The position numbers were made by a program, and so were the translations under genes. A stretch of DNA of 57,527 nt, filler included, from Streblomastix strix (taxonomy: Eukaryota): NCBI GenBank assembly GCA_008636045.1. It is 3 parts of 3 records of this genome, joined end to end, with 100 filler letters (N's around TTAATTAATTAA, not from the genome) between each part and the next. Parts side by side here need not be neighbours in the genome. Positions count along the whole stretch, not along the records: positions 1 to 19,115 come from SNRW01000544.1; positions 19,216 to 38,326 come from SNRW01000545.1; 1 more part is not named here. One strand, written 5' to 3'. The notes beneath the pieces were generated by a model, which had not been told where the DNA came from, searched no databases, and worked only from the letters and a program-made list of their open reading frames with translations. Each line of letters begins with the position of its first letter. The stretch's first letter is position 1. This document shows positions 9,063 through 56,976 of the stretch, one piece after another.

Positions 9063-9328
9063 GTAGTTATGTGAAAAAGGAGAGTGCGCCACATTGAAAA
9101 ATAAAATAAAATAATGAAAATAAGATAATAATAATAAATAATAACAATAAATAATGTAAAATAAATAATGATAATAAACAATGTAAAAGAAAATAAACAC
9201 TTGGATAGGATTAATGATGTGCATTTATAGTGAAACATGATAGAATGCGGATATTGAAGTAGATTAATGAAGTACGTTATTGAATGATATTCTTGAATGA
9301 ATGGCACTCTCCTTTTTCACATAACTAC
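9063..9328. mobile_element. MITE-like element with perfect 25-bp terminal inverted repeats
   Basis: GTAGTTATGTGAAAAAGGAGAGTGC (9063-9087) is the exact reverse complement of 9304-9328; AT-rich non-coding interior. Confidence 0.7.
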
Positions 9329-9467: not shown

Positions 9468-10668
9468 ATGCCAGTCGATCCGCCAAATAGTCGAAATATG
9501 AAAAAAACATTCAATAATGCTTGTAGATTCACAAGTACAATAGATGGAATGTCAACAATTACTGGATCATCATTTGTCAAGTCAGGAGCAGATAATACTG
9601 TAATTTTACTTGGAGCTGGTGGCACTAAACCAATTGCAGAGTTTGGAGGATGCATTGATGATTCGAATTACGTGAAAAAAATAGGCTAATCTCTATAAGT
9701 TATTAGAGGATATATTAGAAAAAGTATGTAAGATGTGGATGATGAATCATCCGAAGAAGATGAAAATTATATAACAAAAGGTGAAGTTGAAACCTAATAT
9801 GTTTCACTAGGTGATAGTTAACAAATCATCGTAATTAAATCATTTTATGATAAAGTTACCGCTAATGGATTCGTTAAAAAAGATGGTACAAATCAACAAG
9901 TATTATTAACGAATGGAACAACGAAACTACTTTCAGAATTTACTGGTATTCCAACTGATTTATCAAATTATTATATTAAAAGTGAAACTTATTCACAAAC
10001 TGAATCAAATAATAAATTTGTAAGATTGGAAGGTTCAATTCAATAAACAATAACAGGAAGATTAAAATATATTAGTCCATTTGGTTAGACATATGATGAG
10101 ACATAAGATCCAGTTGAAAATACATATTTGGCTTAGTCAGAAGTTGATGCAAAACTAACAAGTTATGTTAATACTGTTAATAATTAATCAATAAATGGAA
10201 CTAAGACATTCAATGCAAATGTTAATGCTACTTGATTTGAGAAAACAGGTAAAGATGATACATTAGTCTTATTGGCTGGAGGAGGAGATATGTTATTATC
10301 AGCATTTGGAGGATTAGAATTAGTAAATTTTAATTATACGAGTAATGTAGTTAGTCCAACTTCAATAATGTCACTAAAATATTATAGATGTGGATCACTA
10401 ATCAACTTTTACGGTTATATATATGGGTAATGGAGCAGGAGCATCTGATGCATCAGTTGCTGTTTGCACACTTGAAAGTGCTGGATTTCCAAAGTATTTA
10501 TTTTATGCATATGATATAGTTTTTGCTGGCTCTGCACCACATGTCGCAAATTTCAGATTTGGAACTGATGGAAAGGTTACGAAAACTATTAAAGCACTAA
10601 GTGAAACAGCAGGTTTGGCTGGTGACGCATCAGCATACATCAATGTTACATATCCTGCAGCAAATTGA
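9468..10668 (+). pseudogene. Viral fibre/tail-fibre-like repeat protein (in-frame TGA and frameshift; probably 5'-truncated)
   Basis: Three repeats: TITGSSFVKSGADNTVILLGAGG, KVTANGFVKKDGTNQQVLLTNG, NVNAT*FEKTGKDDTLVLLAGGG; TGA at 10233-10235; frameshift in the TA run at ~10416-10423 before the beta-rich head (...YINVTYPAAN*). Confidence 0.7.
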
Positions 10669-10741
10669 AAACAATAATGGAGCTATTGATATTAGCATTA
10701 CCTATCAAACTAGTCTATTACTATTATTTTTGAAGTATGAA

Positions 10742-12361
10742 ATGAGTTCAGTATACTTAGATGAAGCATTATTAGACGCAGCAGGATTATCAGATTTTCC
10801 AGAATTATACGCATACATTCGTGAGAGATATTAAGATCCAATACCACCAGCATAACGAATACTAATCGGAGAGTAAACTTTATAAAAATAAGTGAAAGAT
10901 AATGATGATATTCTATTTAATACAAACGAAGAGTTCGTACCACCAGTTCCAAACGCTACTTAAATATTAGATTTAAGTTCATAGCAAGAACGATCTAGTT
11001 TCTTATCATCAAGTGGATCAGATCCATAATTAATTGTGTATAATGATCCTGCTACATTAACCGCGTCATATGAAACTACTGGATTATTTCCCAATGGATA
11101 TTTATTCAAAAGTTATCCTGAAAAAGCGAGACCAAAAGCTGGTGATAAAATGATTGGATTAGTTGGAATAGATACAACGAATAAAAATAGTATATTTTGT
11201 TATATCGATTAGAATGGACCATTTATCATCAGTACATCATAGATTCTATCAAATACTGCACTCGTAATAAACGTAACCTATTATAAAATATATGAATATT
11301 CGAAGATAATAAATTATGATGCGAATAATGATGGACGAGTTGATATAATGGATACATAGCATATTAATAGCAAAGGAACATTCGAATCACAATCACATGT
11401 GTATGAAACTGTGAAAAAATAAACTTGTTTGATCGCAACTGGATTGCTTGGTGATGTTAAAGTAAATTATTTGAATAGTGATATAAAATTATAGGATGAA
11501 TTGGCAATCTATAAAGCGGATAGAGCAGCATTCTTCATTAAAGAAGATTCATTTATTACATTTAGTTTTGGGGCAAAATTAGGATAAATAATATAATAAT
11601 AAGCTAATTCAGAAAATCTATAAACAATTCATAGATTATTTTCGACAATAACTTAAAAATTACTTCCTCCAAATACGAAATACATGCCAGTTCGTACTGA
11701 ATAGTAAGAATATACTGCGATGTGTTTGTTCAAAGATATCTATGATAAATCATTAGCGGTAGAAGTAGCTGTAAGTGAAGTATTGAATAAGTATGATTGT
11801 GAATTTAAAGGAAAATATTTACTCGATAACTATAAGAATCCAACATCAAATGAAGAGTCAAATGAAGAACCAAACGTATCTCCATCAGATCCAAAAGAAC
11901 CTGATTCTCATATTGATGAAGTAATAACAAAACGTGATAAATTATTAGCATTATCTTCACAACCAATATATACAATTACTAACGTATTCAATTAAATTTA
12001 ACTTATTGCACCATTTGATCAAGGTGGGCATGCCTATAATACATTCTATATTGTTGATGATGAGACTTGCAAAGTATGTGTATTCAATCTATATTTTGAA
12101 ACAAAAGGATAAGCAATAAGTACATAAGAAATTGGTAGGATTCCAGATTCTATATTACCAGCTGATGGTAAATGTATAGGATTTCCTGCATCTGTATATA
12201 GAAATGCTGGTGGATATATTAATTGGTTGGGTACGAGCTATTTCGGATTCAATTAATAATATAAAATGCTATATTGCTTTTTGCAAAATGTTCAAGAAGT
12301 TATTCCTGAATCATCAACTGATATATATAGGTATTGTGCAAGTGGAATATATTACTTATGA
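10742..12361 (+). CDS. Viral hypothetical protein, 539 aa, beta-rich, with a DxNxDGxVD loop; possible virion/fibre protein
   Basis: Uninterrupted intronless ORF with TAR=Gln, MSSVYLDEALL...YCASGIYYL-TGA (1620 nt). Confidence 0.7.
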
Positions 12362-12448
12362 AGTAACAGGCAATGAAATTGCGTACTATCTATGAGACAT
12401 TGATTCGATAAATTGATGCAAATACGTTTATTTTTGCGTATTAAAATC

Positions 12449-12778
12449 ATGGCACCAGGAATATTCAGCAAGCTTAAAAAATTAGTCTCATTTGTAGGTA
12501 AAGGAGTCAGTTGGATGAATGATAAAGTAGTCAAGCCAATAATGCCCATAACTAACGCACTTCTCTAATCTTTGGAACCAGCAGGAAGCATGGTGGCGAA
12601 AGGGATTAGTGCAGGATCATCTGCAGTTGATGCTTTATTTGGACCGAATAAATAATAATCAAAATAACAATTCAGATAAGAGTTTAAGACATTCCGATAG
12701 GATGATTTCTTAAGGAAAAAGGTTCCGATTGATATAATAAGCAATCGTATAAAGCATCTTGGAGATAAATTGTAGTGA
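12449..12778 (+). CDS. Small viral protein (109 aa) with an N-terminal amphipathic basic helix; putative membrane-active core protein
   Basis: MAPGIFSKLKKLVSFVGKGVSWMNDKVVKPIMP...KHLGDKLQ-TGA; lies directly upstream of the capsid-like gene. Confidence 0.7.
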
Positions 12779-12811
12779 ATCATTAATTGAGTTAATTAAC
12801 ATATAATCAGA

Positions 12812-12820
12812 TTATTTTTG
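12812..12820 (+). promoter_or_regulatory. TTATTTTTG motif before viral start codons (representative copy, upstream of the MCP)
   Basis: Exact copies at 10724, 12428, 12812, 14567 and 16464, each 9-12 nt before an ATG. Confidence 0.5.
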
Positions 12821-12831
12821 CACAATTAAAC

Positions 12832-14553
12832 ATGAATCGCTAGCTTATGAAGACACATGTGCCTAAAATACAAACCAATTTGGAAACAATCGAGAATTTG
12901 TTAAAGACTTTCACAATTCAACCATTTTAGAACGATGGATAACACCATTTCTCAATCAAAGAGATCAAACCAGAATCATAAATGCCATCATTATTTGATA
13001 AGGAAGTTATTATCAGTTTGACCGATCCAGATCATGACGTAACATAGATTTAAAATTCATTAATTACACTTGATTTTACGTTGAATCTATTGTTCGATAA
13101 TAAATTTGATTAATTTAGCGAATCTTATAGAGCTGGAACATTTATATTTGTTGGATTAAAATCATCTGCATAACTAATTCGCGAATATGTTCTGTATCAT
13201 CGAGGAAGAATAATTGATGGATCCCTCTAGAACGATTCAACTACCGAATAATTTATCTATAATACTATTAAACCCAAATCAGAGAAAAATAATAATAGAT
13301 TCGTTCATTCACTCTATGAAAATGTACGTAAAGATGATATATCGCATTGTGGAAAATATCTTAATATCAAGGATATTTCAGATGCATTTGCTCCACAAAC
13401 TGCTGCTCCATATGTTATGCCAGTAAATTTCTCTGTCTCAATTCCACTAGATGATTTACTCATTTTCTCAGCAATCTCTGAATATCCTAACGCATTATTT
13501 GGAGATCTCAAAATTAAATTCAAAATCAATCAAAACGCTTTCGTATTCTGCCAAATTGATCCAGTAATTTCGATGGCTAGATATTACACAATTAATAACG
13601 ATGAATTATTGAGCTCATGTTAAGATAAGCTTAAGGATATTGATCTATTCTTCCGCAACTGGAGTCTCACATTCTAATATACTAACATGTTCATATAAAT
13701 TGGATGCACTGCTGATTTGGTTACAGGAGTACGTGCTGAAGAGCTAACTCCATCATGATTAAAGAATCTAGTTTGTGATATTAGACCAGTAACAGAATCT
13801 GTAAGAAATTATGTCATTACTGCAGCTGTTGCAAATATGTGTGGATATAAAGCTTCACAAAAATGTCTTAATCATGTGCGATAATTCTATTCAACTCGTC
13901 CATTTGTTGTATCTGCATAACGTATTGAAACATAGGCATTTCCAAGTGGTGCTACTCTCACTGGATTGCGTACTTCATAAAATATACCGCTATCTCATGT
14001 TACTGATATGTGCTTACTATTTCCTAAAGATGCTAGACAAACAACTTGCTTCGAAAATCCATGGTATTAAAATATGTAATTATCCACTTTAGGTAGAAAT
14101 TTCCCAGATTTCCCCATGAATACACTTAATGAATAATTTTTCACAATGTAGATGACTGAAAATAATCTCGATAATATATTCGAAGCTATTGATGAATATG
14201 AAGATTCATTAACAACTCCAAGAGGAAATTTGATTAGAAGATACAATTCTGTAACTGATTATACGTCATTCTTTATTATATTATAATGTGAACGTAATAG
14301 CAATCGTGTATTAACATTTGATGGATTAGATACTTAAAATTAAAATACTTCAATTGAATTACATGGATATCTAATTTACTAAGGTGCAGTTGATACTTAT
14401 TATTATGTTGATACTAATGGAAAACTTCCACCTCCTCCAATTCTGCGCACAGTTCATGATTCATTCCGGCTATTTAGCCCTGCAGATGGAGTATCATGCG
14501 TCTATGATACAAATCATTCATTCGATGAGGTTATTGGATAAGTAACTGCTTGA
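12832..14553 (+). pseudogene. Putative major capsid protein (double jelly-roll, PLV type) with one in-frame TGA
   Basis: 573-codon intronless frame MNRQLMKTH...FIFVGLKSSAQLIREY...IPLDDLLIFSAISEYPNALFGDLKIKFKIN...TCFENP...LQCERNS...FDGLDT...QVTA-TGA, one TGA at 13756-13758. Size, beta-rich content and linkage to a packaging ATPase support MCP; the fold is inferred. Confidence 0.7.
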
Positions 14554-14585
14554 TATTGATGGAATATTATTTTTGCTTATAGAAA

Positions 14586-14976
14586 ATGGCATATAATCGT
14601 GCAGTAATTAATGATATGACTTCAGCTCAGAATGTAAAGCGCTTCGTAATAATGTAGGATGATTGTACGTATGTTGATGGAATGTTTAAAGTGTAGTTGC
14701 CTTATGATTTTGTAAACTCATATAATTGGCGAAAAAAAAATCGTATAGTGTAAGATTCTTAATACTCCTGATATAGTTTCTATTCATTCAACATTAGTAT
14801 AAGAAGAATAATATTATGATAGTTTTGTAGATTTCTGTAATGAAACAAAAACGATTAATTAATTTTAATATATGAATCATTAGTCAAATATATTGATTTG
14901 GTTCAAAAATAATATGAATTAAAATGTATCATAAACGGATATAAAATTTGCTCTTGAATTAATGCTTCAATATTGA
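14586..14976 (+). pseudogene. Putative minor capsid (penton-like) protein, frameshifted
   Basis: MAYNRAVIND...FKVQLPYDFVNS, +1 shift in the A9 run at 14732-14740, then SIHSTLVQ...FVDFCN...ILIWFKN...FALELMLQY-TGA; immediately after the MCP. Confidence 0.5.
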
Positions 14977-15003
14977 TTTTTAATTATTTTTATGAATTAT
15001 TGA

Positions 15004-15156
15004 GTGTGGAGGAATTCCGCCATACCATCTGATATAGAGATTAGTGGTCAAATTATCGGTTCATTTTGACAGGTAAAATTTTACCCAACAACTTTTAACA
15101 TGGATATTAGTGGTCAAATTATCAGTTCGAACAGTCGGCCGAAATTCGGCTGACCC
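15004..15156. repeat. Intergenic cluster of two 23-bp direct repeats interleaved with three palindromes
   Basis: ATTAGTGGTCAAATTATCRGTTC at 15040-15062 and 15106-15128; palindromes at 15004-15025 (imperfect), 15072-15085 (GGTAAAATTTTACC) and 15134-15154 (GTCGGCCGAAATTCGGCTGAC). Confidence 0.8.
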
Positions 15157-15216
15157 TTCATAAATTATTTTTATATATTAATCAAAATGTAATTTGGATA
15201 TTTTTATTATAAGCAA

Positions 15217-15477
15217 ATGGAATCGAAATCAATTATCGAATAATGCTAAAAAATATTATAAATCTAAGATTAATGCAAATAAATCATGGTACTTGAGTAA
15301 CGGACTCATGAATTAAAATAAATACTTAAGGAAAAACTAATCTATACATTAGTAGGTTTAGCTTATAGCTTTGTTGATCCTATGGCTAATGAAAGTGATA
15401 AAGATACAAGATTAGAATTAATGGAGCAATATGATGCAGAAGTTGATGACATTATCAATGATATTAAGAGATTGTGA
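15217..15477 (+). CDS. Viral hypothetical protein (86 aa, helical)
   Basis: MESKSIIEQ...GLAYSFVDPM...DIINDIKRL-TGA; alternative in-frame ATG at 15187. Confidence 0.6.
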
Positions 15478-15559
15478 ACTATTTTGATAAATTATTTTTA
15501 TGAATTGATTAATAATCGTTCGTTTTAATTTACTAATCCAACTTTTTTGCCGATCAGAA

Positions 15560-16450
15560 ATGACATCGGAAACACCATCTACTCGTCAAATAGGCTCGAA
15601 TAACGAAAATTTTACAATTGGTTCTTACAATGGTTTCGAAATAATGATACGTGATAATGATGGCTTTGTTAATGCTTCTAAGTTAGTCCAATAGATTAAT
15701 GAAAGAGAACATACATCTAAGGAATTACGTAATATTACACGTTCACCAGTCTTTGTAGAATACAAATAATATCTAGAGAAAATTAGCCCGTTCAATTTGA
15801 ACGGACCCCTTTGTTACTTACTTCCGACTGTTTTTATGAATAATGTTAGAGGAACATACGTTCATAGGTAATTATTGAATATTATCTGTATAATATCATC
15901 AGTTAAATAATTACATCATGTCACAACTATAATGGACAAAATTAACGAAAGAGTTCATGAAGAACACAATGCTGATCCCAATACTCCTATAGGTACTCAT
16001 ATTGATAATGTTAACATTGAATTCATGATTTATCAATAAGATAAAATTGATTAATTAAGATTAGATAATAAAGGTTATAATAATAATATACATTAACTAG
16101 TACCAAGAGCTGTTCCAAATGGTAAAGAAAGAACATATATATTGATAGTTGAAAAGGTTAGCGAAGATGAATAGCTTGAAGATTAGCAGGAAATTCATAT
16201 TACAAAATGAATCAGAAGAATTAATAGAAAAGACTTACGTCCCGCAAAAATAGAACGATATCGTCGTGAATCATTACTTTTTGTTGATAATTTACCAATA
16301 GATATGATGATTAATGAAAAAATTAAAGAAACTCTATAATCAAGACAAGATGTAAAAATATGATCAACTCATTATACATTCCCAGAAGACTAATTTGATT
16401 TCATAATTGATATAATATAAGCTGTAATTAACACAGAAAGAGCACATTGA
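15560..16450 (+). pseudogene. KilA-N domain DNA-binding protein (two in-frame TGAs in the C-terminal part)
   Basis: KilA-N hallmarks YNGFEIMIRDNDGFVNASKL...VRGTYVHRQLL; then coiled coil and PRAVP; TGAs at 16208-16210 and 16361-16363; final TGA 16448-16450. Confidence 0.85.
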
Positions 16451-16482
16451 TGGTTCGGTTATTTTATTTTTGTTTAATTGAA

Positions 16483-16887
16483 ATGTCTCGTATACTATTC
16501 GATAGTAAGCTAGTTAAGAACAATAAATCTTAAGACAAAATATAACCATTACATGAACTAAAAATAATCAATAAAACTGATACGTAGCCGTTAACGTTTG
16601 ATTCGACTGATGAATTCCATTAATATTATGCAGCTAATAAAGAATCTATTGATAAGATGCTAGCTACAAAATTAAATAAATAGTATAAAATAGATGGATA
16701 TATCTTCACAAAATAGAATGAATAAATAGCGTTGAAATAAGCAAAACATTAGTAATCTGAACAAATTGAACTAGCTTGTCTATAAGAATAAATCAAAAAA
16801 ATTAATGATAAATTAACGTATTTAATGAACTTCTTTGAATAAAAATAATAATCAACTTAATATGAAGATGATAAATACGTTCATTGA
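16483..16887 (+). CDS. Viral hypothetical protein (134 aa)
   Basis: MSRILFDSK...FDSTDEFHQYYAANKESIDKMLATKLNKQYKIDGYIFTK...DDKYVH-TGA; intact and intronless. Confidence 0.65.
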
Positions 16888-16923
16888 ATCCTTCAATATT
16901 AGATCAATATCCTCAGTCCTAAA

Positions 16924-17224
16924 AACTGTGCAGGTGTGCAGGATTAGGACCCCTAAAATTGATAAAATGATAGTCGGTCGGTCGCTCGCTCGGATTTGCT
17001 TTTGAGATAAGCGACTGAAAAAAATATATATTAACTAATTCATCAATCGTATTATTTTTATCAATATTCCCTATCTCTACTTATCCTGCACAAAATGACC
17101 AAAAATAGGGGAAAATTAAGGAAGTTTTATTAATGCTGCTACTTAAATGTATTCTTTAGCGAGCGACCGACCGACTTTCATTTTGGCAAAATTAGGGGGT
17201 CCTATCCTGTACACCTGCACAGTT
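16924..17224. mobile_element. MITE-like element with ~67-bp imperfect terminal inverted repeats inside element A
   Basis: Left arm AACTGTGCAGGTGTGCAGGATTAGGACCCC...AGTCGGTCGGTCGCTCGCT (16924-16990) pairs with 17158-17224; GC-rich arms between convergent viral genes; no clear target-site duplication. Confidence 0.75.
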
Positions 17225-17296
17225 CCCCAAGCTATTGAGATTCACTCTAATTATGAAGGACTAAAAATAGAACTAATTGAAAATAAAATTTCAATA

Positions 17297-18070
17297 TCAA
17301 ATAACTCGTACCATTGTTCCATCATTATTATACTGTACCAGTAATGCTTCTTGTTTGCCTAATTGCACATATTCATTCCATAATGTTTCTTTAACTAATG
17401 GAATGCTTGATTAATAGAAGAATAAATTGAATTTTTATCTGTTGAATCCACCGAAAAAGTATATTGTATCTACATTAGATTTAATGCTAGCATCCAAACC
17501 AATTATATCTTATAAGCATAGGAAGTAAGTGATTCTGGGCTATCTATTTTTGAATAGATTCTTGTATATTGGATTGATTTTATTCTTGAAGATACTCATT
17601 GCATCATCGAACAGTACTATTGTATGTGAAAATTTGATTGCAAAGTCCTTTATTCCTATGTGAGATAATATATCTTTTTTAGATTCATCATTCATTTATT
17701 TTTCTAATTTCCTTTCAATAACCTCATCATAAGCTTGTTTTCATTCGATCAATTCATCTAATGCTTCATTCACTTCTGCATATGGAACTATCTTAGTTGG
17801 GATAGTGATTAAATCTTTCATTTTTTTATAAGTTATATCATTATTGCTATCAGTAACATATTTGAATAGTGTATAACATTTATTAGGCAATTAGCTCAAT
17901 TTGATTAGCTCTTTGAATACATTATATGACTTACCGCTTCCACGTTATCCTATGTGCAGATTGATAGAATTATATGAGAAATTTATTTCTTTATGAATCA
18001 TTGATTATACTTCATGTTTATTAGTTTTCAATTTACTAAGCAATTGATCCACATATGCTGTCAAGGACAT
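17297..18070 (-). pseudogene. A32/FtsK-HerA family genome-packaging ATPase (element A), one in-frame TGA
   Basis: Walker A GQRGSGKS, Walker B TIVLFDDA, NRQPRITYFLCLQ (Arg finger and Gln sensor), IKSNVDTIYFF; TGA at 17741-17743; 257 codons. Confidence 0.9.
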
Positions 18071-18121
18071 TTGTTTGTTATTAATTATTTCATTCGGTTA
18101 TGAACGTTTTCTTATTAACAA

Positions 18122-19115
18122 ATGAGCTCAGAAGAGTTAAATTCTGAAATTGGAAATATCTGGACAAGTGCACGAGGTAATAATGAATTCATTAATGAGT
18201 TACGTAATGCGTAGGATAATATACAAAATTAATATGAACATAAAAGTCGTAAAAGTAAAGCAGAAGAATTAGAAATATTGAATCAAACAGTTATCGCATT
18301 TCGAAGAATTTAATAAAACATTAGAACTCAACATAATAGATTACTAATAATCCTTTATAAACTTATATTGCTAGTTAACCTTAAACAATTACTTAAAATT
18401 TATTAGTATAATTATAATCAACATATTAACGAACATAATAACCAAGAGAATAAGCGATAGAATAAATACAAATCCTAACTTTTATCCAAAACCAAATAAT
18501 GGCTTAAGTATAACAATCGAGTTTCTCAAAATGGTTAGAGAAAAATTAAGCTCCATTATCCGAAAAAAAAACGTAATAAGAAAAACGCTAGATTATAGAA
18601 GCTTGCATAAGGTAGAATTATCCGTGCAACAGGACTTAAAGCAAAATAACTACAAGCATTAATCGGAGTATTAAATGTTAAACAAAACCTGCATAAAGAT
18701 ATAAAACATAATTAAGAATTCAGAAAAATACTATCAGGAGAACAATATATTGCTTCTCATAAAGGAATGCAAGGATATACTATGTAGATGGTCGATCCAG
18801 ATGGTGAAGGTCCGCTACCTGAATTCGCTACCGTTTATACGAATAATGGAAAATTATATTCTATGGGCGGATATATACCAAAAGACGAAAGTAAATATAA
18901 TAAATATCGAGAATAATTTATCGGTTAAGTAGCAAAAGATCATCGTAAAAATACTAAATTCTTCGATTTTATGTAAGGTAAGGAAGTTCGATATGGTGCG
19001 CAACATAAAGATGGCACTTATAACATGAAATAATTCTAATAATTAGTTCCAAGAAATCATTTCTTAGCTACTTATGTCCCAACCATTGCAAACGAATATA
19101 AAGACACGAATGAAA
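18122..19115 (+). CDS. Viral hypothetical protein, 3'-truncated by the assembly gap
   Basis: Frame free of TGA from MSSEELNSE through ...MVDPDGEGPLPEFATVYTNNGKLYSMGGYIPK... to the N run; divergent from the ATPase. Confidence 0.6.
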
Positions 19116-19215
19116 NNNNNNNNNNNNNNNNNNNNNNNNNNNNNNNNNNNNNNNNNNNNTTAATTAATTAANNNNNNNNNNNNNNNNNNNNNNNNNNNNN
19201 NNNNNNNNNNNNNNN
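19116..19215. other. Artificial gap linker (44 N + TTAATTAATTAA + 44 N)
   Basis: Exactly 100 nt with a six-frame standard-code stop cassette; identical to 38327-38426. Confidence 0.97.
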
Positions 19216-19644
19216 AATATATGAATGTATTAATCGTTTGATTACTGACAATTGCTATTACGAAAGAGAAGTCATTTAAGTTATATTAAATGAGTATAAT
19301 ATCATTAATCAAGTCAATATTTAATTATAGATTCTATAGTGCTAATTTCTTATTATCTGTTATTAGTTTATCGATACCTGAACAAGTATAAGAATTAATC
19401 AATGAATTTAAAAAACTATGGAGTTATCTTGATGTGATAGTGATTCCAATTAGTATTATAATATATATTGTTAAATTCTTCTATCATTGTAAAATGCTAA
19501 ATAAAAAGGATTTACACTGGAGTTAATATACGATTGATGAGTTGTATTAGTTAGTATAATTAACGATTGACGATAAGGTTCTTAAATTAGCATAGCATTA
19601 TCGATACCTAATTACTTTAAAATTGATTAATTAAAACAATTAAA

Positions 19645-20676
19645 ATGAGTTTATCAGAAATAAAGCAAAAATAGTTTGATACTTATAATAGGTTAGATGA
19701 ATATAAAACGAAACCATTAACCCCTAAATCTATCTTTCTTATTAACGCAAACTATTATATTGTAGGAACTGTTGGAAGTGGTAAAACAACATTAATGAGT
19801 AAACTAATTGTACAATATAAACATATAATTAATCCTTATATACTATACTTCTCAAATTTAGGACCGGATGAAAGTATGTCGTTAAATATGAATGATAAAA
19901 ATATATCAATTAGTAATATAACTTACGATGAAGCGATGATCTTCTTACCATAGTTCGATAAGATTAAATACAAGGTTAAATAGATATATACTTATTGGAA
20001 ATTAAAGCAAATGAAAGTTAAGTATAACAGTGATTACATTAATTAACTTAAATAGAATATGTTCGATGTAAATGAATTAAAAAATGAAGAAACGTATTAA
20101 TAGTTTATAACTTGAATGAAAGAGTAATTTAAAATCTATTGTATTGAAACAATTAACGAATATAGCTAACTTACAAAAATAATGTAATTTATTATACCTT
20201 CGTTAGTTTAAAATGTTAGTTATGAGATTAGATTGAAAATAACTGATACATAAGAAATAGATGAAGATGGAGTTACTATAATTAAAACACTAAAATTTCC
20301 TATACTTTAAAATGCAAAATTATTATCTACGTTAATGATCTTTGATGATATTGGTTCTAATACAGATATATAAAGATATACTTCATAGTTATCTTGTACA
20401 ATTACTCATCTCGTAAGTGATAGTAAACATTCTAAAAATACTTTATTCTTTGTTGCATAACGTATGTAATACTTGTTTAAAACTGCTCGAATATTATGTC
20501 ATGTGATTGTCCTTGGGGTTAATTTAGGAGATAGTGATTTGAAATAGATTTATAATGAGAATAATATAAACATACCAACAGAATAAGAGTTAATTATATT
20601 ATGTAACTCATTGAATAAGTATGAATTTATTGTTATTAATAAGTGGTTATAAAGATTTGAAATTATTAAATAATGA
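19645..20676 (+). pseudogene. A32/FtsK-HerA family packaging ATPase (element B), one in-frame TGA
   Basis: NYYIVGTVGSGKTTLM (Walker A), TLMIFDDIG (Walker B), DSKHSKNTLFFVAQR, KTARILCHVIVLG; TGA at 20113-20115; 343 codons. Confidence 0.85.
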
Positions 20677-20697
20677 TAAATTTTATTTTTAATTTAA

Positions 20698-20841
20698 ATG
20701 ATATGTTGGGAAATTATTTGTTGTATTTCATTAATGATTATAACTTACAATCATCTATTAGTTTGTATATTAACAATATAGCAAATAAAAATAGATAACG
20801 AAGGGATTAGTGATGAAGTAAGAAATTCAATTTATTCGTGA
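20698..20841 (+). CDS. Possible small membrane protein (47 aa)
   Basis: MICWEIICCISLMIITYNHLLVCILTIQQIK...NSIYS-TGA; preceded by the TTATTTTT motif seen before other viral ATGs; overlaps the extended antisense fibre frame. Confidence 0.35.
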
Positions 20842-21903
20842 GACTTAAAAGTCGCCAAGCTATGCTTGGATTAACTTGATTAATTATTAATAGCATATGA
20901 ATCACAAACGTATACACAAAAATCATCCCGTAAACTTAACTTACACATTATATTAATTCTTACATGTCCATCAGGATCAAATTAACAATCAATAGGAATT
21001 GCACCATTCTAACATATAGGGTACCCATATACTTTTTATGCAAACATAACAGCATTTAAAGGTATATTATAAGGTGTTCCAGTGAATTTTGGTTTTATAT
21101 CATCTTTAACGACTGAGAATAAAGTATATTTAGATTGACATGCAGTATTAGGGTCAGAATGAGTTACTTATACCGATAAATATGCTCTTCCATTATTGGT
21201 TGTAAATGAACCCCATACTAATTGTTCATACATTCCATATGCAAGTGCTTATTTGATAGCATTTTCAATAGGTATAGGTGCTATAATTTAATTGTTGAAT
21301 TTAAGTGATGTACAATCGAAATCAATAATTAGACTCTTATAATCATATGCTTAATCTTTTTTTTTGTATCCTAAATTATGATGAAGTTGATCCAACTTTC
21401 TATACACCATCTCTATCTGTAGGGTCAGTGATACATCCAGTGAGTACAAAACTATCCCAATTTGCTTTATTTTTCATTAACCTAATACCTTAATCTAATA
21501 TAATATCACTCGGTTCAATAATAAATTATCCTATTGTATGAGGATAGTATTTGGGTAAAAAATCACCTACATCAGTTGTATCACCATTAGCTAGTAGAAT
21601 CTAATTATCAGTGCCATCTGTTTTTATACTCTTGTTTGCTACTATAGGTTATATAAATGATTTGCTTCCTGCTACTGTTTGATCGGTATCTAATAACATT
21701 AAATTAGATAAATAAATATCCTTAGTTTTCATGTATTAACTGAAATAAGTAAACAGTTTAATAATCTTTGTATCAATGAAAGAGGTTAATTATCTTTATA
21801 GTTTCTCTAATTACTTCACTTCCTCTTATTTTTATTATATCTCTTACAATTATTTTCGTATATAAGTTATCTCCTCTTCAGATGGTTCGATTAATGATTC
21901 CAT
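20751..21903 (-). pseudogene. Viral fibre-like protein of element B (frameshifted; 3' end uncertain)
   Basis: MESLIEPSEEE coiled coil, then DTDQTVAGSKSFIQPIVANKSIKTDGTDNQILLANG (same repeat class as 9468-10668); +1 shift in the A9 run at 21357-21365; beta-rich C-terminus. Confidence 0.65.
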
Positions 21904-21922
21904 TTAGATTAAAATAAACTGA

Positions 21923-22540
21923 TCAGAATTCATTTAGATCAATATCTGATGCAGGCTTATCAGATAGTCTAACGAAATCTTTGTTTATTCGATATAGGTT
22001 CTCAACAGAGTTAAACAACACATTATCTAATACACTAATGCTTACATTTTTAATTAGTACATCCATTACACTTACTAAGTTTTTTTTCTTATATTTATTT
22101 GCCATACATGAATGTGATTACGTTAATAGTTCCTCTAATACTATTTCAATATCATCTTCGTTTTCTTATGTGATTAGTGCCCAAAATTTAATGAAGTTAT
22201 CGCTATTCAATATGAAGTCATCTCCTCGTTTTCTTGATGTAGTTACTCTCCAGATACAATCAATAACAAATTTAAGTACTTCTAGATGTGGATGAGCTAA
22301 GAAAGTTTTTTTAACTACATCTTCAGGTTCAACTTATGCAGTCTCTCATTCTGCTTCTTTGTATTTATTTTTATTATAATGCCTCTTAGGTCTAACTTCG
22401 TCTTTAGTAATATCCTCTTTAATTTCTTATTATGGAATTGATAAATTTCTCAAGGCTTAATCAATCGATTATAATCTAAGTTTATCTTCTTCCGATAACT
22501 CTTTCTTCATGTCTTCGATTTGTTTCTTTGATTTACTCAT
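21923..22540 (-). pseudogene. Viral hypothetical protein (205 codons, one in-frame TGA)
   Basis: MSKSKKQIEDM...HPHLEVLKFVIDCIW...SDIDLNEF-TGA; internal TGA at 22346-22348. Confidence 0.55.
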
Positions 22541-22604
22541 TCGGAGTTAATTCCTCTCGATGCTTGAAATAATTTAAATCAATTAAAAATTTTATTATTG
22601 ATAA

Positions 22605-23159
22605 ATGGATAAATCGTAAACCTTAAGAAAATTAAAAGAAAATGGAACTGCATTTGAAAGCTTCATTGGAGGATATCTAATGTAAATAGGTAAGTAGATT
22701 AAGATATATGAAGATGGATAGAGGACTCCAAAAGTCTTAATACAAGCTTAGTAAAATAAGTTGTTATAGATGCCAATAATAAAAGAATAAAAATAAGACG
22801 AACTATTTATGTATCAGGATGATGAAGATGAAAGTGAAGAAGAATAAGAAATATAAGTACCAGTAGTTAAGAAGAAGATTAAAGCAATATAAAAATAACC
22901 TACTATTAAATATTCTACTCCATAGATAGATCTTGAAGACCTAATTAAATTGCGAACTGAAAATTAATTCATCAAGAAATAGCATATCGAAGCATAAAAA
23001 CAAATTAATAAATATAAGCATAAACATAAATCAATGAAACAAGTTAAAAAACCTTCAATTAAAGAATAACCTATTGAATAATAATAAATTTAAGAATAAC
23101 CAATTTAGTAAGAATTAGTTAGCGAAAGATACATTAGTGAGTTCGAGTTATATTAATGA
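22605..23159 (+). CDS. Viral hypothetical protein (184 aa, charged/coiled-coil)
   Basis: MDKSQTLRKLKENG...IDLEDLIKLRTEN...SEFELYQ-TGA; intronless and divergent from the preceding gene. Confidence 0.6.
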
Positions 23160-35255: not shown

Positions 35256-35572
35256 TGATATCTTAATTAATAAATATAAAATAAAATTAATATATTAATT
35301 ATATTATCAAAAAATATTACTAATAAATTTATCGGCTAGGCCCTGCTATATAGGACAGTGCGTTAGATAGTCCTAGTTGAGTACATCAACATTAATTAAA
35401 ATGGCTTTCTTCAAGAGATCAGTATTAGTGGAGGGGTAGGGTTTGGAAGTTTTGAAAATTAAGGATTTTTTACCAAGATTATTACAGCATTATTTGTTTA
35501 ATTTTATTGCAATTTGTTCTATATAACAATGATTAAATTATAGGTGTGAAATAAAATTCAAATTTTTGTCTG

Positions 35573-35881
35573 TAGCGATCAAAAAATTGATTTTAGAATA
35601 AAAAATAAAAAATGCAGAATTTGGATTATTTTTGCATAAATTTGAGTTAATTTATATCTTTAAAAAATTTATTTTAATTAATTCGATATTATAAAGTCAA
35701 ATATTAATAGATTTAACCAGTTACACGGTGCTAAAAAAGAAAGCTATTATTAGATGAATTTAGTTACCAAATTAATTAATATAAATTTATTTAAATATAA
35801 ATTAATACTCATTTATGCAAAAATAACATAAATTTTTCATTTTTTTATTTTTTTATTCTAAAATCAATTTTTTGACCGCTG
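35573..35881. mobile_element. AT-rich foldback/MITE-like element with long imperfect inverted arms
   Basis: TAGCGATCAAAAAATTGATTTTAGAATAAAAAATAAAAAATG from 35573 matches the reverse complement ending ...AAAATCAATTTTTTGACCGCTG at 35881; pairing extends ~120 bp inward. Confidence 0.65.
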
Positions 35882-35971
35882 GAGATGAAACAAACGTTCT
35901 ATTTATATATAAACAAATTTTTAAAAATAATTTTATTTAATTTTATTTATTCAATCATTTAGAACTCTTTT

Positions 35972-38007: not shown

Positions 38008-39069
38008 TCATTTCTTTTCGTCTGGCTTTCCTTGTGTCTTTGTTTGAGTCTTTGTTTATGATTGAATTTGAGAAGGAAGTGAAGATTTGGAATCTTGATT
38101 TGATTTCTCTTTCTCTGAATGTCCTTCTTTTGATCCTTTCTTTTATGCATCACTTATTCCTAAGTTAGATGTTGATACTATAAGTTCTCTGCTATTCGGA
38201 TTCTCTTTTTCTTTTTCTTTTTCTTTCTGTTTTTCTTTTTCTTATTCTTTTTTATTCACACTATCATCTTTCTATATTCTTGCTTTCACTTATTCTTTTT
38301 ATACAATTCCATCTCTTAGTAATATTNNNNNNNNNNNNNNNNNNNNNNNNNNNNNNNNNNNNNNNNNNNNTTAATTAATTAANNNNNNNNNNNNNNNNNN
38401 NNNNNNNNNNNNNNNNNNNNNNNNNNAATAATTTGATTCCGCTCTGTGTCGCCTGAGAATTGTTAATGGAGAAGAATAGTAAAATTAATGTGAATTTTTA
38501 ATATAAAATAAATAAGTAATATAAAATACTGTTGCTGCTGCTGTTTTAAGATGGTTCAACTTCATATTCTTGAGTTTGCTCCAAAATAATATTTTCTTCA
38601 ATTTCTTGTTCAAATGGAGGAATTGCATCAATAATATGCGTAAGAACATCGCGAATCATCTGAACGCAACAATGACAAATAATAATGAGTAATAATAATT
38701 TAGATTCATACTTACACCTCTTTGCGAGAAAACTTCGTTCTTTATCGAAGCATTTTTCTTAATTCTTCTTCGTTGATCACTTCGATCATTTCATCGCAAA
38801 ATCCTTGGCGAATTGCTCTGCAGATCAGCTCAATTATTCGGCGAATGCAACGCGATTGCATAACTTCATTATCAGACCGAAGTATTAATACCATATATCT
38901 CAATTCTGATAACTGAAAGTTGAACGTTAGGAAATAAAAATAAAAATAAACGGAAAATTTTATTTTTGCGCACATCAAGCTTCTGTGTATACGACCATGT
39001 TGTTGGTGTAAAAATTTCTTCTACATCGTATTCATACAGACAATTTGTATTCTTAAAGCCTGTCCTCAT
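38008..39069 (-). CDS. Hypothetical protein, multi-exon, apparently spanning the assembly gap
   Basis: Exons MRTGFKNTNCLYEY.../LSELRYMVLILRSDN.../MIRDVLTHIIDAIPPF...; the other side of the gap gives a same-strand K/E-rich C-terminus ending GKPDEKK-TGA. Confidence 0.55.
38327..38426. other. Artificial gap linker (44 N + TTAATTAATTAA + 44 N)
   Basis: Identical to 19116-19215. Confidence 0.97.
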
Positions 39070-51290: not shown

Positions 51291-54200
51291 TCACTACCTT
51301 GTAAGGCACTCTGCAACTTCTGGAATCTCAAGGATATCTGCAGATGTAATACGACGAGATGGATCCTGGAAAACAAATAAGTTGATAACAAGAATTAATT
51401 TAAATATAATTATTTATTAATCTAATTATATTGAATACTTTAGACAGCATGTTCTTGATCAGTTTCCTCAAGTTCTCGGAGTAGTGACTAGGAAGTTCAG
51501 CAGGTTGTTCTTCGGTAATTCGGCGGATAAGTTCAAGTAGAGAGAGGTTGTTATCCTAAAATATATCATTTTAAATTAATGACAATATGAATTTATTAGA
51601 TCAATATAATCAATATAATAAAAATAAACGAATAAAAACAGATTTTCATACTTTGGCATCAAAGAATGGGTGACGCTGTGCCAACAATTCGAACATCATG
51701 ACTCCAATGGCCCAAATATCTGCTGCTGGTGTTTGCATCAATTTCTTTGCACCTTACCCTTAACTGGGTTCTACTTTGTTTTGGAGGAGCTCGGGCCCAA
51801 GGTATAAGCTGAAATAAATATAAATTTTTAATAATAAACATTAAAATTAATTAATGATTATTTAATATTTGTTATAAATAATACTTAAATTTTATTCAGA
51901 TATATATTTTTCCATTTATTATATATAGATTCATACGTTGTGCCTCCCATGGCTGTGAGATAATCTCTTCCTTCTTCGATCTTACGAGCCAACCCGAAAT
52001 CGGCTGACAAACAAATTGATAATAGAAATTAAATAAAGAAACATAAAACAAAATTAACATACAGAGTTTTACCCTGTAATCTTTCATGACCAGAACATTC
52101 TCAGGCTTTAAGTCCCCATGAATAATATTGTTTATGTGAAGTTGGTGAACAGCAGAGGTAATCTGTGCAATGAGCTCAAAAGCTTTCTATAATAATAAGA
52201 TTATTATTATTATTATATTATATAATTTGCAATAATAGTTTATTAAAGAAAATTCAATATAAATAAAATAATAATAATAATATTTATATGATTTATTTTA
52301 TTATAAATATTTTTTAGCAAACTCTATCGGTAATAGCAGCTCCCATGCTCCTCATATTGTTAATATATTTCCTCAGATCACCTTTCTCGCAGAACTCAAG
52401 CACAAGATAAGCTTTTGTAGAATCTTCGCTCAAAAAGAACCCAAGAGGTTGAACCACATGAATGAATGATCCAGGAGGACTTGATTTTTTAATAGACTCG
52501 TAGATGTTCAACATTATGTCTCTTTCCTTGAGTATCATCTATTATGCTTGTTCATTATCATAATCAACTACTTTTATGGCAACAACTCTTTGTGTGCTTC
52601 TTTCCATCATGCACCAAACTGTTCCAAATCCTCCTCTACCAAGTTTCTTGACCTTCTCGACTAAATAATAAGATATAAAAAAGAAAAATAATATTAACAA
52701 ATGATTAAAATAATAATAATAGTTAAAAATTAAAAGGAAATGTAAACAATTTATACAATAATTTATATATTATCCAATAATAATATATATTCTCCATACA
52801 ATCAGTTTTATCCCAGGTTGTGTTGAATGGCGCATTTTCATTTTCCATTTGAACATGATCTTTTTTTTTATCTTTCTATTTCTTGCGTCTACAGATGCAG
52901 CAGATGATGATAAGTACTACTATTATAATAAGGAGAACACCAACTGCAGCAATTAGAATTATCATCCACTTTGGGAATGAAAATCCTTTTGGAGAATCAA
53001 CACCATCTATTTCTTCTTATTTTTGTTCTTCATCTGTTTCTTCATCTGTTTTTTCATCAACTTCTAATTCAATGACATTAAGAGGAGGTGATGCACCTTC
53101 TTTTCCTTCAACACCAGTAAATATCGATCCATCATTCGAGATTAGGAAATTATAGTTATATTTATTGTAGTCAAACCACTTATAAATTTTCATTCCAAAT
53201 GTTGCTGTTTGTTCATCTTGAAGATTTCCTTCAACTTGGATTGGAGTCCCTGATCCATCTTCTGGAGGATATATTACATCATCTGCATTGTATTATTATA
53301 TTGATAATTCCTTATTGACTGATGTTTTTAATCCTGCTTATATAATCTTCACTCTCAAATTAACTCCTGCTATTATACCGCTGCCTTTAATTGTGAATTG
53401 AAGAGGTAAGTTGGTATTTGAAATATTCAAGGTAACTTCTACTCTGGTTAAAGTTGCTATTTTAACCCAGAAGTATTAGAGATGATATTATTATTCTTGT
53501 ATTTCTTCTTATGAAAGTCCTTAGAATGCATTTGATTCCATTATTACACCTTCAAGATCATTTAAATTTGCTAAAGTATCACTATAATTACCTTTCACAT
53601 ATTCTCCCAGTGACCCTTAACTGCACCATTCTGCTAATTTAGTCATTACAACATATAAGCTTTATCCACCTCTACCTGCAGTATTTCCAGTAATATTCAT
53701 CCATCTAAAGTCCAGAGCCTTTTATGAAGGTTCATAACTTCCTGTTCCAGTCAAGAAGATTCCTCCTCCATATCCAGTTGGAGAAGCTGGTGATATGTTA
53801 TTGACTGCTTGGCAGTTTTGGATTACAGAGTCCCTGATAATGAATGTGGTTGAAGAATCTGCACTAAACGTCATATCAGCATAAATTCCTCCTCCATTTC
53901 CTGAAGTTGCTTTGCATTACTTTAATGAACATGTATTTTAGAGGATAAGTTTGCCACCTCCTGTTATTCTCGAATACAATCCTCCTCCTCTTAAACCTTC
54001 GCATTATAAGAATTAAGTTCGAGACAATGTCATTTATGCATCTGTATTCTATATTTCTGCATTAATTGCTCCTCCCCAAGTATTTTGAGCTTTACATGAA
54101 GTAAATGTACAATTTGTAACATTAAATATATTCGATGCGTATGATAATACTGCCTTGATTATTCCACCTGCAATTGTATCTCCTAATTTTGTAATATTCT

Positions 54201-56845
54201 CAAATTAGCTGTTAATAATTCTAATTGATCCAGTTTCATTGAAATTAACTTTGATGATATTCTCTTCAGTAGAAATATCTTTTGCTTTCAAATTGGATAT
54301 TATATGAGAACCTCCTCTTATTACTGAAACAAGACTTCTGGCAATTTATGATCCTAAATTCTACAAGTGGAATTCACAGTCTTATAGATCAATTTCTGCA
54401 GTTGATTATAGACCATATATACCCAGATTAGTATATAGTAGGATGGTGCTCTCCATAGTAAAGTTTATTAATTGGAATCTTACTTTTCCACTTATATTGA
54501 ATTTTCCATCTGTATTAATTAGGATTCTACTTAATTGAATACTTGAAAGTGGATTGTTTCTGAATGTACGTCGAGTAGCTGTCTGCGATATTACTGCTGT
54601 ACTATTTATGGAGGTGTTGTCATATATATAAATCTAAGTTACTGTTTCACTGTTAATATTAGTCTATATCACAGATGCATCTAATGTCTTACAAGGATTT
54701 GTTGAGTTACACGAATTTGAATCATCGCTACCATCTGATTTGATAAAATATTCATTTCTTTCTTCATTCCAATAATCTTTAAGGTACTTCTATAGCAAAC
54801 TTATATTTGATGTTGAATATGAACTGAATGTTGATGAATTCACTGGTATTCCTTCTAAATCACTTACATCAGAATAAGTATCACTGTAATTCCCTTTCAC
54901 ATATTCTCCTTCTCCTCCATATTTGCACAAATCAGCAACTTTTGTCATTGCAGCAAATACGCTATATCCTCCATTATCAGCTCTGTTTCTGTATATATTC
55001 ATTCCACGAAGGTCAATCAGTTCAGATGATGGATCATAATCTCCATTACCTGCAAGAAACAAGCAACCGCCATATCCAGAAGGTGGTATATCTTAATTTT
55101 CATCAGATTTTGCTTGGCATTCTTGAATTAAGGTATTATTGATCTTGAATTAAAATTATGATGTAAAGTTATTGATATTGATAAATAATCCTCCTCCGTT
55201 TCCTGATGTAGCTTAGCAATCAGAAAACAAACATTAATCTTCAATTATTAACTTCCCTCCTGTACTTATAGTTGTATAAATACCTCCTCCACTTATTCCT
55301 CTACAATTATCAACAGTTACTCCACTTAATTCAACTGATCCTCCCGAGATTACAATATTAATAGCTCCACCACTTCCTGATGTTGCATTGCAATCTGAAA
55401 ATGAAGTTGAGCTATTGATGGTTAACTTCCCTCCTGTACTTATAGTTGAATAAATACCTCCTCCATTCACTGCAGAACAGTTATTAAATGTAACATTACT
55501 CAATTCTATAGATTTATTAGAAACATTATAAAAATATAATCCTCCTCCCGAATTCAAAGCACTGCAATTTAAGAATTATGAACTTGTTATATTAATTTCA
55601 CCAGAATTTTAAGTTGATATATATAATCCTCCACCATTACTACTTTAACAATATTTGAATGTTGCATTATTAATTTCAAGAGTTCCAAGATATTGAATAT
55701 ATATATACATTCCACCACCATCTGTAGCTTTGCATTAATCAAATTCTAATTCTCCAGTAAAATTTATTTAAGATCCTGAATCCCAACTAGATAAATATAA
55801 TCCTCCTCCATATCCTGAACTTGTACTTGTGCTTGAGCAATTGTAAAAAGTGTAATTACCTGTAATTGTCAGATTTTACACAGTTTATATTTAAAAATAG
55901 ACTCCTCCTCCTCCTAAACCAAAGCAACTGCATTCATTGAATGATAATTTATTCATCTAAAACTATCCAATGTAACTTAAAGATATAGCTAATCCACCTC
56001 CTTAGTAACCTTTACATCCCTCAAATAAGAGTTCTCCAGTGATATTGATATTATAGTTTGGGTTTAATGCGTTTATGTAACACCCTCCTCCAGAGCTGCT
56101 TGAGCCTGAACAAGAACAGTTCTTAAATGTGCATACTCCAGATATTGTAAGATACCCATTTTCATATATCAATGCAAATAATCCACTTCCACCGCCACCT
56201 CCTGCTCCAATTGAATTGCAGTCAGTGAATTTACTTTAGTTAATTAGCAATGCTCCATTTGATTAAGCACTACCATACATTCCTCCTCCATCATTAGATC
56301 TACAATTAATAAACTAAACTTAATCAAGAGTTGCTTATCCATAGTTGTTGCAAGTTATATACAAGGCTCCTCCATTGGTTGAAGAATTACATCCAATAAA
56401 ATTGCACCCTGAGATATTAAGTTTACATGAAGTACCAAGAAAAGCATTAATTATACCACCCTAAGAGTTTGATACTCTAGCTTCCATTGTGAAATTAATC
56501 AATTCAAAGTGAGCATTTCCACCAATATTGAATTACCCACCTTTATTAATTTGGATCTAACTATTAGTTGTGCGATCCATAGGATTGTTTGTGAATGTTC
56601 TCGGAGATGATGTATATGTAATTGAGAAATTAGAAGACAAAGTTGTTTAATCCAAGATATAGACTATATATGTACTTGCAGTGTTTATGCTATTTTTTAT
56701 AGATTGTGCATCTAATGTTAAGCATTAACCTTATTATGAGCATTAATTTGAATCAGTTCCAGAAGTTTCAACGTAAAATTCTTCCCCAGAAGTATTAAAG
56801 AATCCAAAGGAAATGAAGAACGTAAGGAATAATAACAGATAACAT
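51291..56845 (-). CDS. Single-pass receptor-like Ser/Thr kinase with a Gly/Cys-rich beta-helix (pectin-lyase/Pmp-like) ectodomain
   Basis: Many F..C...GGG(I/L)Y repeats; TM WMIILIAAVGVLLIIIVVLIIICCIC-RRKK; kinase LGRGGFGTVW, VAIK, HGDLKPEN, DFGLAR, GPE, DIWAIG; ends CLTRQ-TGA 51291-51293. The ATG at 56845 is one base out of frame with the signal-peptide-like stretch. Confidence 0.85.
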
Positions 56846-56976
56846 TGATTTTTCTTATTATTTATATGTTTGAGTTTATATGATAATTACAAGTTGATGG
56901 AGAGAATTTAAGTTGCTAATATAGGCAGAAAATAAATAAGGATTAGAATTATTATAATTCTATTGAATGATCTTAC

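What the first reader, a model, noticed from the sequence alone, without database searches (positions are those of the whole stretch)
17297..20676. Viral genes use TAA/TAG as Gln, even at conserved catalytic-motif positions
Seen: in ATPase A the Walker A Gln (GGA TAA CGT GGA AGC GGT AAG) and the sensor Gln (TGC TTA TAA) are TAA; the sensor Gln of ATPase B (GTT GCA TAA) is also TAA; every viral gene ends in TGA. Inferred: these viruses replicated for a long time in hosts with this code, so they are not bacterial or phage contamination, and the code would restrict host range.
Basis: partly seen in the sequence, partly recalled or inferred. Interest (0 to 1): 0.75.

Follow-up and report, generated by a model that had tools for sequence, protein, structure and literature searches.

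The report
Protist virus genes use host's code
Broken copies of a capsid-encoding DNA virus sit in the genome of a termite-gut protist and have TAA/TAG where related viruses have glutamine, likely because this virus family adapted to its host's unusual genetic code before these copies decayed, a pattern already reported for Streblomastix strix.

Summary
The codons are real and the core reading holds, but it is published: Bellas et al. 2023 state that S. strix endogenous viruses use the host's TAA/TAG=Gln code, suggesting long association. The window is S. strix-like DNA carrying decayed Polinton-like virus copies (double jelly-roll capsid fold, packaging-ATPase fold). Sensor Gln codons are TAA at invariant columns. 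All 18 of 18 real homologous loci from other collections have CAA/CAG there, and most end in TAA/TAG. TAA/TAG makes up 78% of Gln codons in viral genes and 77% in host exons. Post-integration decay cannot explain this: 20 of 23 conserved Gln columns are TAR, against 1 of 29 comparable non-synonymous CpA/TpG changes, with no CpA bias. Corrections: the 'Walker A Gln' is not conserved (Arg in 17 of 19 non-Streblomastix relatives). Both ATPases and the capsid gene carry an internal TGA, so these copies are pseudogenes. The two ATPases lie either side of an artificial-looking linker, probably on different contigs. Host-range restriction is untested. The scan noted the same phenomenon on two other genomes.

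The parts
17297..18070 (-). ATPase A: FtsK/HerA (A32-type) genome-packaging ATPase, pseudogene; 8 TAR and 5 CAR Gln codons; internal TGA at 17741-17743; terminal TGA at 17297-17299
   Evidence: model pLDDT 88.9; best Foldseek match is the STIV B204 packaging ATPase, E 7.3e-9
17945..17947 (-). TAA at Walker A position Q42; a variable position
   Evidence: R 17, K 1, Q 1 among 19 non-Streblomastix rows
17540..17542 (-). TAG = Q177, next to the putative arginine finger R176 (NRQP motif)
   Evidence: Q in 26 of 28 rows; CAR in 18 of 18 homologous loci
17510..17512 (-). TAA = sensor Gln Q187, at the end of strand 180-186 of the model
   Evidence: Q in 28 of 28 rows; strand E180-186; sensor role from PMC11703096 passages
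18122..19114 (+). Unknown ORF divergent from ATPase A, cut by the linker; 20 TAR and 12 CAR codons; likely part of the same element
   Evidence: no Pfam hit; multi-copy in four runs
19116..19215 (.). 44N + TTAATTAATTAA + 44N linker; likely an artificial join of two contigs
   Evidence: piece lengths 19115/19111/19101
19645..20676 (+). ATPase B: second, distant A32-like ATPase family, pseudogene; 21 TAR and 3 CAR Gln codons; internal TGA at 20113-20115; K at 261 where 15 of 15 paralogs have R
   Evidence: Pox_A32 hit in 5 of 16 family members, best E 6.2e-6, below the curated cut-off; HHalign to family A, probability 80%, E 1.4e-5
20458..20460 (+). TAA = sensor Gln Q272 of ATPase B
   Evidence: Q in 15 of 15 paralogs
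12832..14553 (+). Double jelly-roll major capsid protein gene of the element that carries ATPase A, pseudogene; 26 TAR and 7 CAR codons; internal TGA at 13756-13758
   Evidence: model pLDDT 90.9; Foldseek matches to SGIV, PBCV-1, Sputnik and mavirus capsid proteins, E 4e-13 to 5e-10
16450..16887 (+). Small ORF convergent with ATPase A; homologues lie beside the ATPase in 7 metagenome loci; 16 TAR and 1 CAR codons
15560..16210 (+). KilA-N domain ORF inside the element
   Evidence: Pfam PF04383, E 1.3e-9
9468..12778 (+). Three further ORFs upstream of the capsid gene (9468-10235, 10742-12361, 12449-12778), likely viral structural genes; assignment inferred from position only
   Evidence: no Pfam hit
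16924..17224 (.). 67-nt inverted-repeat pair (MITE-like, inferred) between ORF16450 and ATPase A
   Evidence: multi-copy depth

Best explanation
These are decayed endogenous copies of a Polinton-like virus in a Streblomastix-type genome, and their genes have TAA/TAG at positions where relatives have glutamine, likely because the virus lineage evolved under purifying selection while being translated by a host that reads TAA/TAG as Gln. Mechanism: the virus relies on host ribosomes and tRNAs (inferred from established PLV biology; no tRNA gene in the window). In such a host the first position of YAR is synonymous. AT-biased mutation then drove CAR to TAR to the same level as third-position NNY sites, while TGA remained the only stop (equilibrium shown; causal path inferred). 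The copies in this window were later inactivated by internal TGA codons and scattered substitutions (shown). A TAR-coded genome would be cut into short peptides in a standard-code host (computed), so the lineage is probably confined to code-6 hosts (inferred, untested).
For: Viral identity: capsid fold; packaging-ATPase fold; 35 of 56 ATPase A hits and 32 of 32 ATPase B hits are S. strix proteins. Code: TAR at conserved Gln columns in three genes; 18 of 18 real homologous loci, found with a pattern that allowed TAR, have CAR at both test columns and end in TAA 11, TAG 3, TGA 3, one off-contig. Equilibrium: viral 170 TAR of 218 Gln codons (0.780) vs host 743 of 962 (0.772), Fisher p 0.86; viral NNT share 0.79. 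Not decay: ATPase A keeps 148 of 155 columns conserved among 16 nearest paralogs, yet 5 of 6 conserved Gln are TAR; over A and B, 20 of 23 TAR vs 1 of 29 His>Tyr, Met>ATA, Trp or Cys>Tyr changes, Fisher p 2.7e-10. CpA observed/expected is 1.10 in viral and 1.12 in host genes. Viral genes lack the host's CpG depletion (0.92 vs 0.46). Another copy, P0103 (JGI, 51 aa, 42 of 51 residues as in the window), spans exactly M126 to R176, between two Gln columns, as a standard-code gene caller would cut a TAR-coded copy (its DNA not seen). The 18 S. strix rows plus the window form one side of a branch, 100/99. Published statement of the same.
Against: Codons of intact young copies were not read: no genome, protein hits carry no codons, and one search listed no difference near either Gln codon because edge positions appear masked. 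No TAR-coded homologue was found in IMG/VR, JGI or GTDB scans, so no free virus with this code was seen. The window copies do show some C>T decay (His>Tyr at ATPase B 37, capsid 513, ORF18122 codons 38 and 94), so a few TAR may be post-integration. Three standard-code relatives also end in TGA, so the terminal TGA need not be a switch. ATPase B's viral status rests on weaker evidence, and no capsid gene was found on its piece.
Confidence: 0.85

Rival explanations
1. Standard-code viruses integrated, and TAR arose afterwards by neutral or RIP-like C>T decay of CAR, tolerated because the copies are dead.
For: The copies are pseudogenes with internal TGA; 9 of the 12 best-supported differences in ATPase A against other copies are non-synonymous; a few CAT>TAT changes exist.
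Against: It needs about 78% conversion of CAR, but comparable non-synonymous sites changed in 1 of 29. 57 of 60 conserved capsid columns are kept. There is no CpA context bias: the share of T at NNY sites is 0.81 before A vs 0.74-0.84 otherwise. P0103 points to shared TAR columns in another copy.
Confidence: 0.05
2. The code was adopted during long vertical inheritance as chromosomal DNA (provirus kept under selection, or a Maverick-like transposon without a virion stage), not during independent viral replication.
For: Only integrated copies are seen; hundreds of copies in the host (820 capsid hits for S. strix, PMC10120064 Table S1); no TAR-coded free virus was found; no RNA holder was available to test expression.
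Against: Viral genes lack the CpG depletion of neighbouring host genes (0.92 vs 0.46; T share before G 0.79 vs 0.92), which fits short chromosomal residence. Capsid and packaging motifs stayed conserved across divergent paralogs, which fits selection for virions.
Confidence: 0.1
3. The viral stretches are contaminating bacterial, phage or other-organism DNA, or assembly errors produced the stops.
Against: The viral DNA is contiguous with code-6 host genes on both pieces. There are 26, 8 and 21 TAR codons, which fall on Gln columns. Similar DNA occurs in four runs from three studies, one of which may be the source. The Alphaproteobacteria-filed contigs carry capsid, ATPase and a pPolB and are probably mis-binned protist-virus DNA (inference).
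Confidence: 0.01

Closest known systems
Metamonada (MMN) group endogenous Polinton-like viruses of Streblomastix strix (Bellas et al. 2023, PMC10120064)
   Same: Same host lineage, same double jelly-roll capsid family (the supplement's S. strix capsid row resembles the window's capsid N-terminus by eye, and both match Sputnik 3j26), and the same claim that the EVEs use the host's TAA/TAG=Gln table, indicating long association.
   Different: The passages read state the code in one sentence, without codon counts, a decay test or a comparison with standard-code relatives; those are added here. The copies here are pseudogenes.
Standard-code relatives: Trichomonas vaginalis TVAG_036400 (P0029) and homologous loci L001-L022
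   Same: ATPase 40-50% identical, capsid about 28-32% identical, same ATPase/small-ORF/capsid neighbourhood.
   Different: CAR only at the test columns, and mostly TAA/TAG terminal stops; intact reading frames.
Other viruses with ciliate-type codes: RNA viruses of the Zhao-like group (PMC7508674) and an Imitervirales IM_12 giant-virus genome under code 6 (PMC13524828)
   Same: Virus genes read only under a host-type reassigned code (passages).
   Different: Those are metagenomic with hosts inferred; here virus and code-6 host DNA are on one contig.
Totivirus of Scheffersomyces segobiensis (PMC3628385)
   Same: Virus-host co-evolution under a modified nuclear code (search listing and start of abstract only).
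   Different: RNA virus, CUG=Ser code in a yeast.

Membership tests
Polinton-like virus / Maverick-Polinton EVE | Double jelly-roll major capsid protein | tested here: met
   Model pLDDT 90.9; top Foldseek hits are iridovirus, PBCV-1, Sputnik and mavirus capsid proteins
Polinton-like virus / Maverick-Polinton EVE | FtsK/HerA (A32-type) packaging ATPase with Walker A/B, arginine finger and Gln sensor | tested here: met
   ATPase A: top hit STIV B204, E 7.3e-9; motifs. ATPase B is weaker: sub-threshold Pox_A32 hits in paralogs, and the arginine is lost in this copy
Polinton-like virus / Maverick-Polinton EVE | Integrated in host nuclear DNA | tested here: met
   LRR and kinase genes lie on the same piece as capsid and ATPase A, with no linker between
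Maverick-Polinton (strict) | Protein-primed DNA polymerase B and rve integrase | tested here: inconclusive
   No hit in the window from ORFs of ten related loci; a relative, L017, has DNA_pol_B_2, E 3.8e-6; both elements are cut at piece ends
Maverick-Polinton (strict) | Terminal inverted repeats and target-site duplication | tested here: inconclusive
   No long TIR pair; only one end of each element is in the window
Metamonada (MMN) capsid group of Bellas et al. 2023 | Capsid clusters with T. vaginalis and S. strix MCPs | tested here: inconclusive
   Visual match to one supplement row and a shared 9-residue motif in stored homologues; no clustering was run against that set
NCBI translation table 6 | TAA and TAG both occupy conserved Gln columns | tested here: met
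   TAA at A Q187 and Q220, B Q243 and Q272, capsid Q289 and Q363; TAG at A Q177, B Q301, capsid Q133
NCBI translation table 6 | TGA is the stop and is not read as one amino acid | tested here: met
   The terminal TGA of ATPase A is 83 codons after the NRQ motif vs 84-87 in relatives, and 12 of 16 paralogs end at the same column. The three internal TGA columns hold unrelated residues in relatives, none of them Trp. 0 TGA in 7214 host exon codons, which were chosen as open frames
NCBI translation table 6 | Gln actually inserted at UAA/UAG in the viral proteins | not testable with these tools
   Needs proteomics; no RNA run was listed
RIP-like CpA>TpA hypermutation of repeats | CpA depletion and His>Tyr, Met>Ile(ATA), Trp>TAG changes at high rate | tested here: not met
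   CpA O/E 1.10; 1 of 29 such changes

The most novel reading that the evidence does not exclude
A single Polinton-like virus lineage crossed from standard-code gut flagellates into the code-6 oxymonad, recoded about four fifths of its Gln codons to TAA/TAG while replicating as a virus (it lacks the host's CpG depletion), and is now locked into that host: a datable natural case of a genetic-code barrier trapping a DNA virus, with a second ATPase family possibly marking an independent event.
Probability: 0.35. Interest if true: 0.5.

Novelty: already known. Interest (0 to 1): 0.2.

Why it matters
The code match ties these viruses firmly to their host and excludes contamination, and this is already published for S. 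strix. What this analysis adds is a quantitative test that the recoding predates decay, plus standard-code relatives for comparison. Together they could make the old hypothesis that variant codes act as host-range barriers testable by phylogeny (Shackelton and Holmes 2008, seen only as a reference entry). It also shows why standard-code gene callers miss such viruses.

Tried and rejected
No whole genome is held, so young and old copies could not be compared at DNA level. The search for related loci in viral contigs found nothing with P0004 or P0019, nor did the motif scan there. Of 22 pattern hits in metagenome and genome collections, 4 were chance matches and were dropped (L008, L011, L019, L020). 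Laying contigs on 17492-17560 listed only two mid-stretch synonymous differences, so it says nothing about the Gln codons. One search showed 40 of 611 difference rows; none of the 37 in coding sequence was a TAR/CAR first-position swap, which is weak evidence only. No RNA holder was listed, so there is no evidence on expression. The PDB sequence search for ATPase A gave nothing significant. ORF18122 and ORF20751 remain unannotated (no Pfam hit). The S. strix genome paper was not held. Rejected: TGA as a sense codon (the three internal TGA columns hold unrelated residues); RIP-like decay; the two ATPases as neighbours in one genome (linker between them). The tree root is unresolved (72/52 at the midpoint, long branches flagged), so a host jump versus co-divergence through the host's code change is not settled. 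Tree labels for the S. strix rows and for 13 named or metagenome protein rows come from organism or gene-calling, not from read DNA.

Full report
What the window is. Under table 11 only 8 ORFs reach 100 aa. Under table 6 there are long ORFs with LRR, kinase and WD40 domains. The nearest named homologues of both ATPases are Streblomastix strix proteins: 35 of 56 hits for ATPase A, up to 90% identical, and 32 of 32 for ATPase B. The host is therefore S. strix or a very close relative (inference), an organism described as using TAA/TAG for Gln (PMC10120064 passage). Two linkers of 44N+TTAATTAATTAA+44N split the window into pieces of 19115, 19111 and 19101 bases. These are most likely separate contigs in length order, so ATPase A and ATPase B should be treated as unlinked.

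Observation. The three quoted codon strings are present. Alignment A1 holds all 21 non-Streblomastix hits and 8 of the 35 S. strix hits. In it the sensor Gln Q187 is invariant in the 28 rows with a residue, Q177 is Q in 26 of 28 and Q220 in 27 of 27; all three are TAR in the window. The Walker A position Q42 is R in 17 of 19 non-Streblomastix rows, so that example fails. In ATPase B (15 of 32 hits aligned), Q243 and Q272 are invariant and are TAA. In the capsid alignment (67 of the 150 listed hits, of 450 found), the three columns with at least 70% Gln are TAA, TAA and TAG. The role of the Gln sensor and arginine finger in this ATPase family is taken from passages of PMC11703096.

Viral identity. 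The capsid candidate at 12832-14553 folds with pLDDT 90.9 and matches double jelly-roll capsid proteins of iridovirus, PBCV-1, Sputnik and mavirus. ATPase A folds with pLDDT 88.9 and best matches the STIV B204 packaging ATPase. Related loci L012, L016 and L021 carry both capsid and ATPase, and L017 carries a pPolB. ATPase B is a distant second family (HHalign probability 80%; sub-threshold Pox_A32 hits in 5 of 16 members), and no capsid gene was found on its piece.

These copies are dead. Each of the three genes has an internal TGA. The three columns hold unrelated residues in relatives, so TGA is not a recoded sense codon. ATPase B has also lost an arginine and a proline that are invariant in 15 of 15 paralogs. 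Of the 12 best-supported differences between ATPase A and other copies in four runs, 9 are non-synonymous (only 40 of 611 rows were shown).

Did TAR come from decay? No. Ten viral ORFs have 170 TAR among 218 Gln codons (0.780) and eight host exons have 743 among 962 (0.772; Fisher p 0.86). The viral share of T at two-fold third positions is 0.79. The YAR first position thus behaves as an equilibrated synonymous site. Against its 16 nearest paralogs, ATPase A keeps 148 of 155 conserved columns while 5 of 6 conserved Gln are TAR. For ATPase B against 5 paralogs, 15 of 17 kept Gln columns are TAR. Non-synonymous changes of the same CpA/TpG type occurred at 1 of 29 His, Met, Trp and Cys columns (Fisher p 2.7e-10). 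The capsid agrees: 15 of 17 Gln shared with its nearest homologue are TAR, with His>Tyr at 1 of 8. There is no CpA bias (O/E 1.10), and viral genes lack the CpG depletion of host genes (0.92 vs 0.46). That suggests their codon usage was set outside the host chromosome's mutational regime (inference). A JGI protein fragment of another copy, P0103, runs exactly from M126 to R176, between two Gln columns, which is the longest standard-code segment in the window copy too (51 aa). Against this reading: some C>T decay exists, and the codons of intact young copies were not read.

Direction. A DNA pattern that allowed either CAR or TAR found 22 loci in two collections, 18 of them real homologues. All 18 have CAR at both test columns, and 14 of the 17 complete ones end in TAA or TAG. 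In a 46-row tree, the window and 18 S. strix proteins form one side of a branch with support 100/99, but the root is unresolved. One recoded lineage with standard-code relatives is supported; a host jump versus co-divergence with the host's code change is open.

Host range. Read with the standard code, the capsid frame stops after 3 residues, ATPase A after 21 and ATPase B after 9, so a standard-code host would be predicted not to express them. In the other direction, relatives ending in TAA/TAG would be read through in a code-6 host. Both are inferences; nothing here tests infection.

Novelty. Bellas et al. [quoted passage not shown] Code-6 viruses are also reported among RNA viruses (PMC7508674 passages) and one giant-virus genome (PMC13524828 passages). 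Six paper searches listed no codon-level study of the S. strix elements, but the library lacks most subscription papers, and I did not read the SI Appendix PDF. Two earlier scan notes on other genomes describe the same kind of thing (unchecked).

Noticed in passing
window 19116-19215 and 38327-38426: Linkers with stops in all six frames (under the standard code) join three pieces of near-equal, descending length; findings that span them probably join unrelated contigs.
   Followed up: partly
viral ORFs 9468-23159 vs host exons: Host genes are CpG-depleted (O/E 0.46) and viral genes are not (0.92), hinting at CpG methylation or deamination in the host and short residence of the viral copies.
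   Followed up: partly
viral ORFs 9468-23159: CAG is rare in viral genes: TAG 44 vs CAG 3, against 116 vs 42 in host exons (Fisher p 0.002, not corrected for multiple tests). Unexplained.
   Followed up: partly
window 9063-9328, 16924-17224, 35564-35890: Three short inverted-repeat elements (MITE-like, about 270-330 bp); one at the host/virus boundary, one between viral genes.
   Followed up: no
   Followed up: partly
window 12449-12778; L012 2275-2751; L021 6758-7207: A short ORF directly upstream of the capsid gene with an amphipathic-looking N-terminus sits at the same position in relatives; similarity by eye only, no tblastn hit.
   Followed up: no
window 52564-57252 (-): Large host membrane-anchored, Gly/Cys-rich repeat protein resembling polymorphic surface proteins (resemblance recalled, no family hit for the repeats).
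   Followed up: no
window 20751-23159: Further apparently intronless ORFs beside ATPase B with no Pfam hit; one shares a short motif by eye with the ORF at 9468-10235.
   Followed up: no
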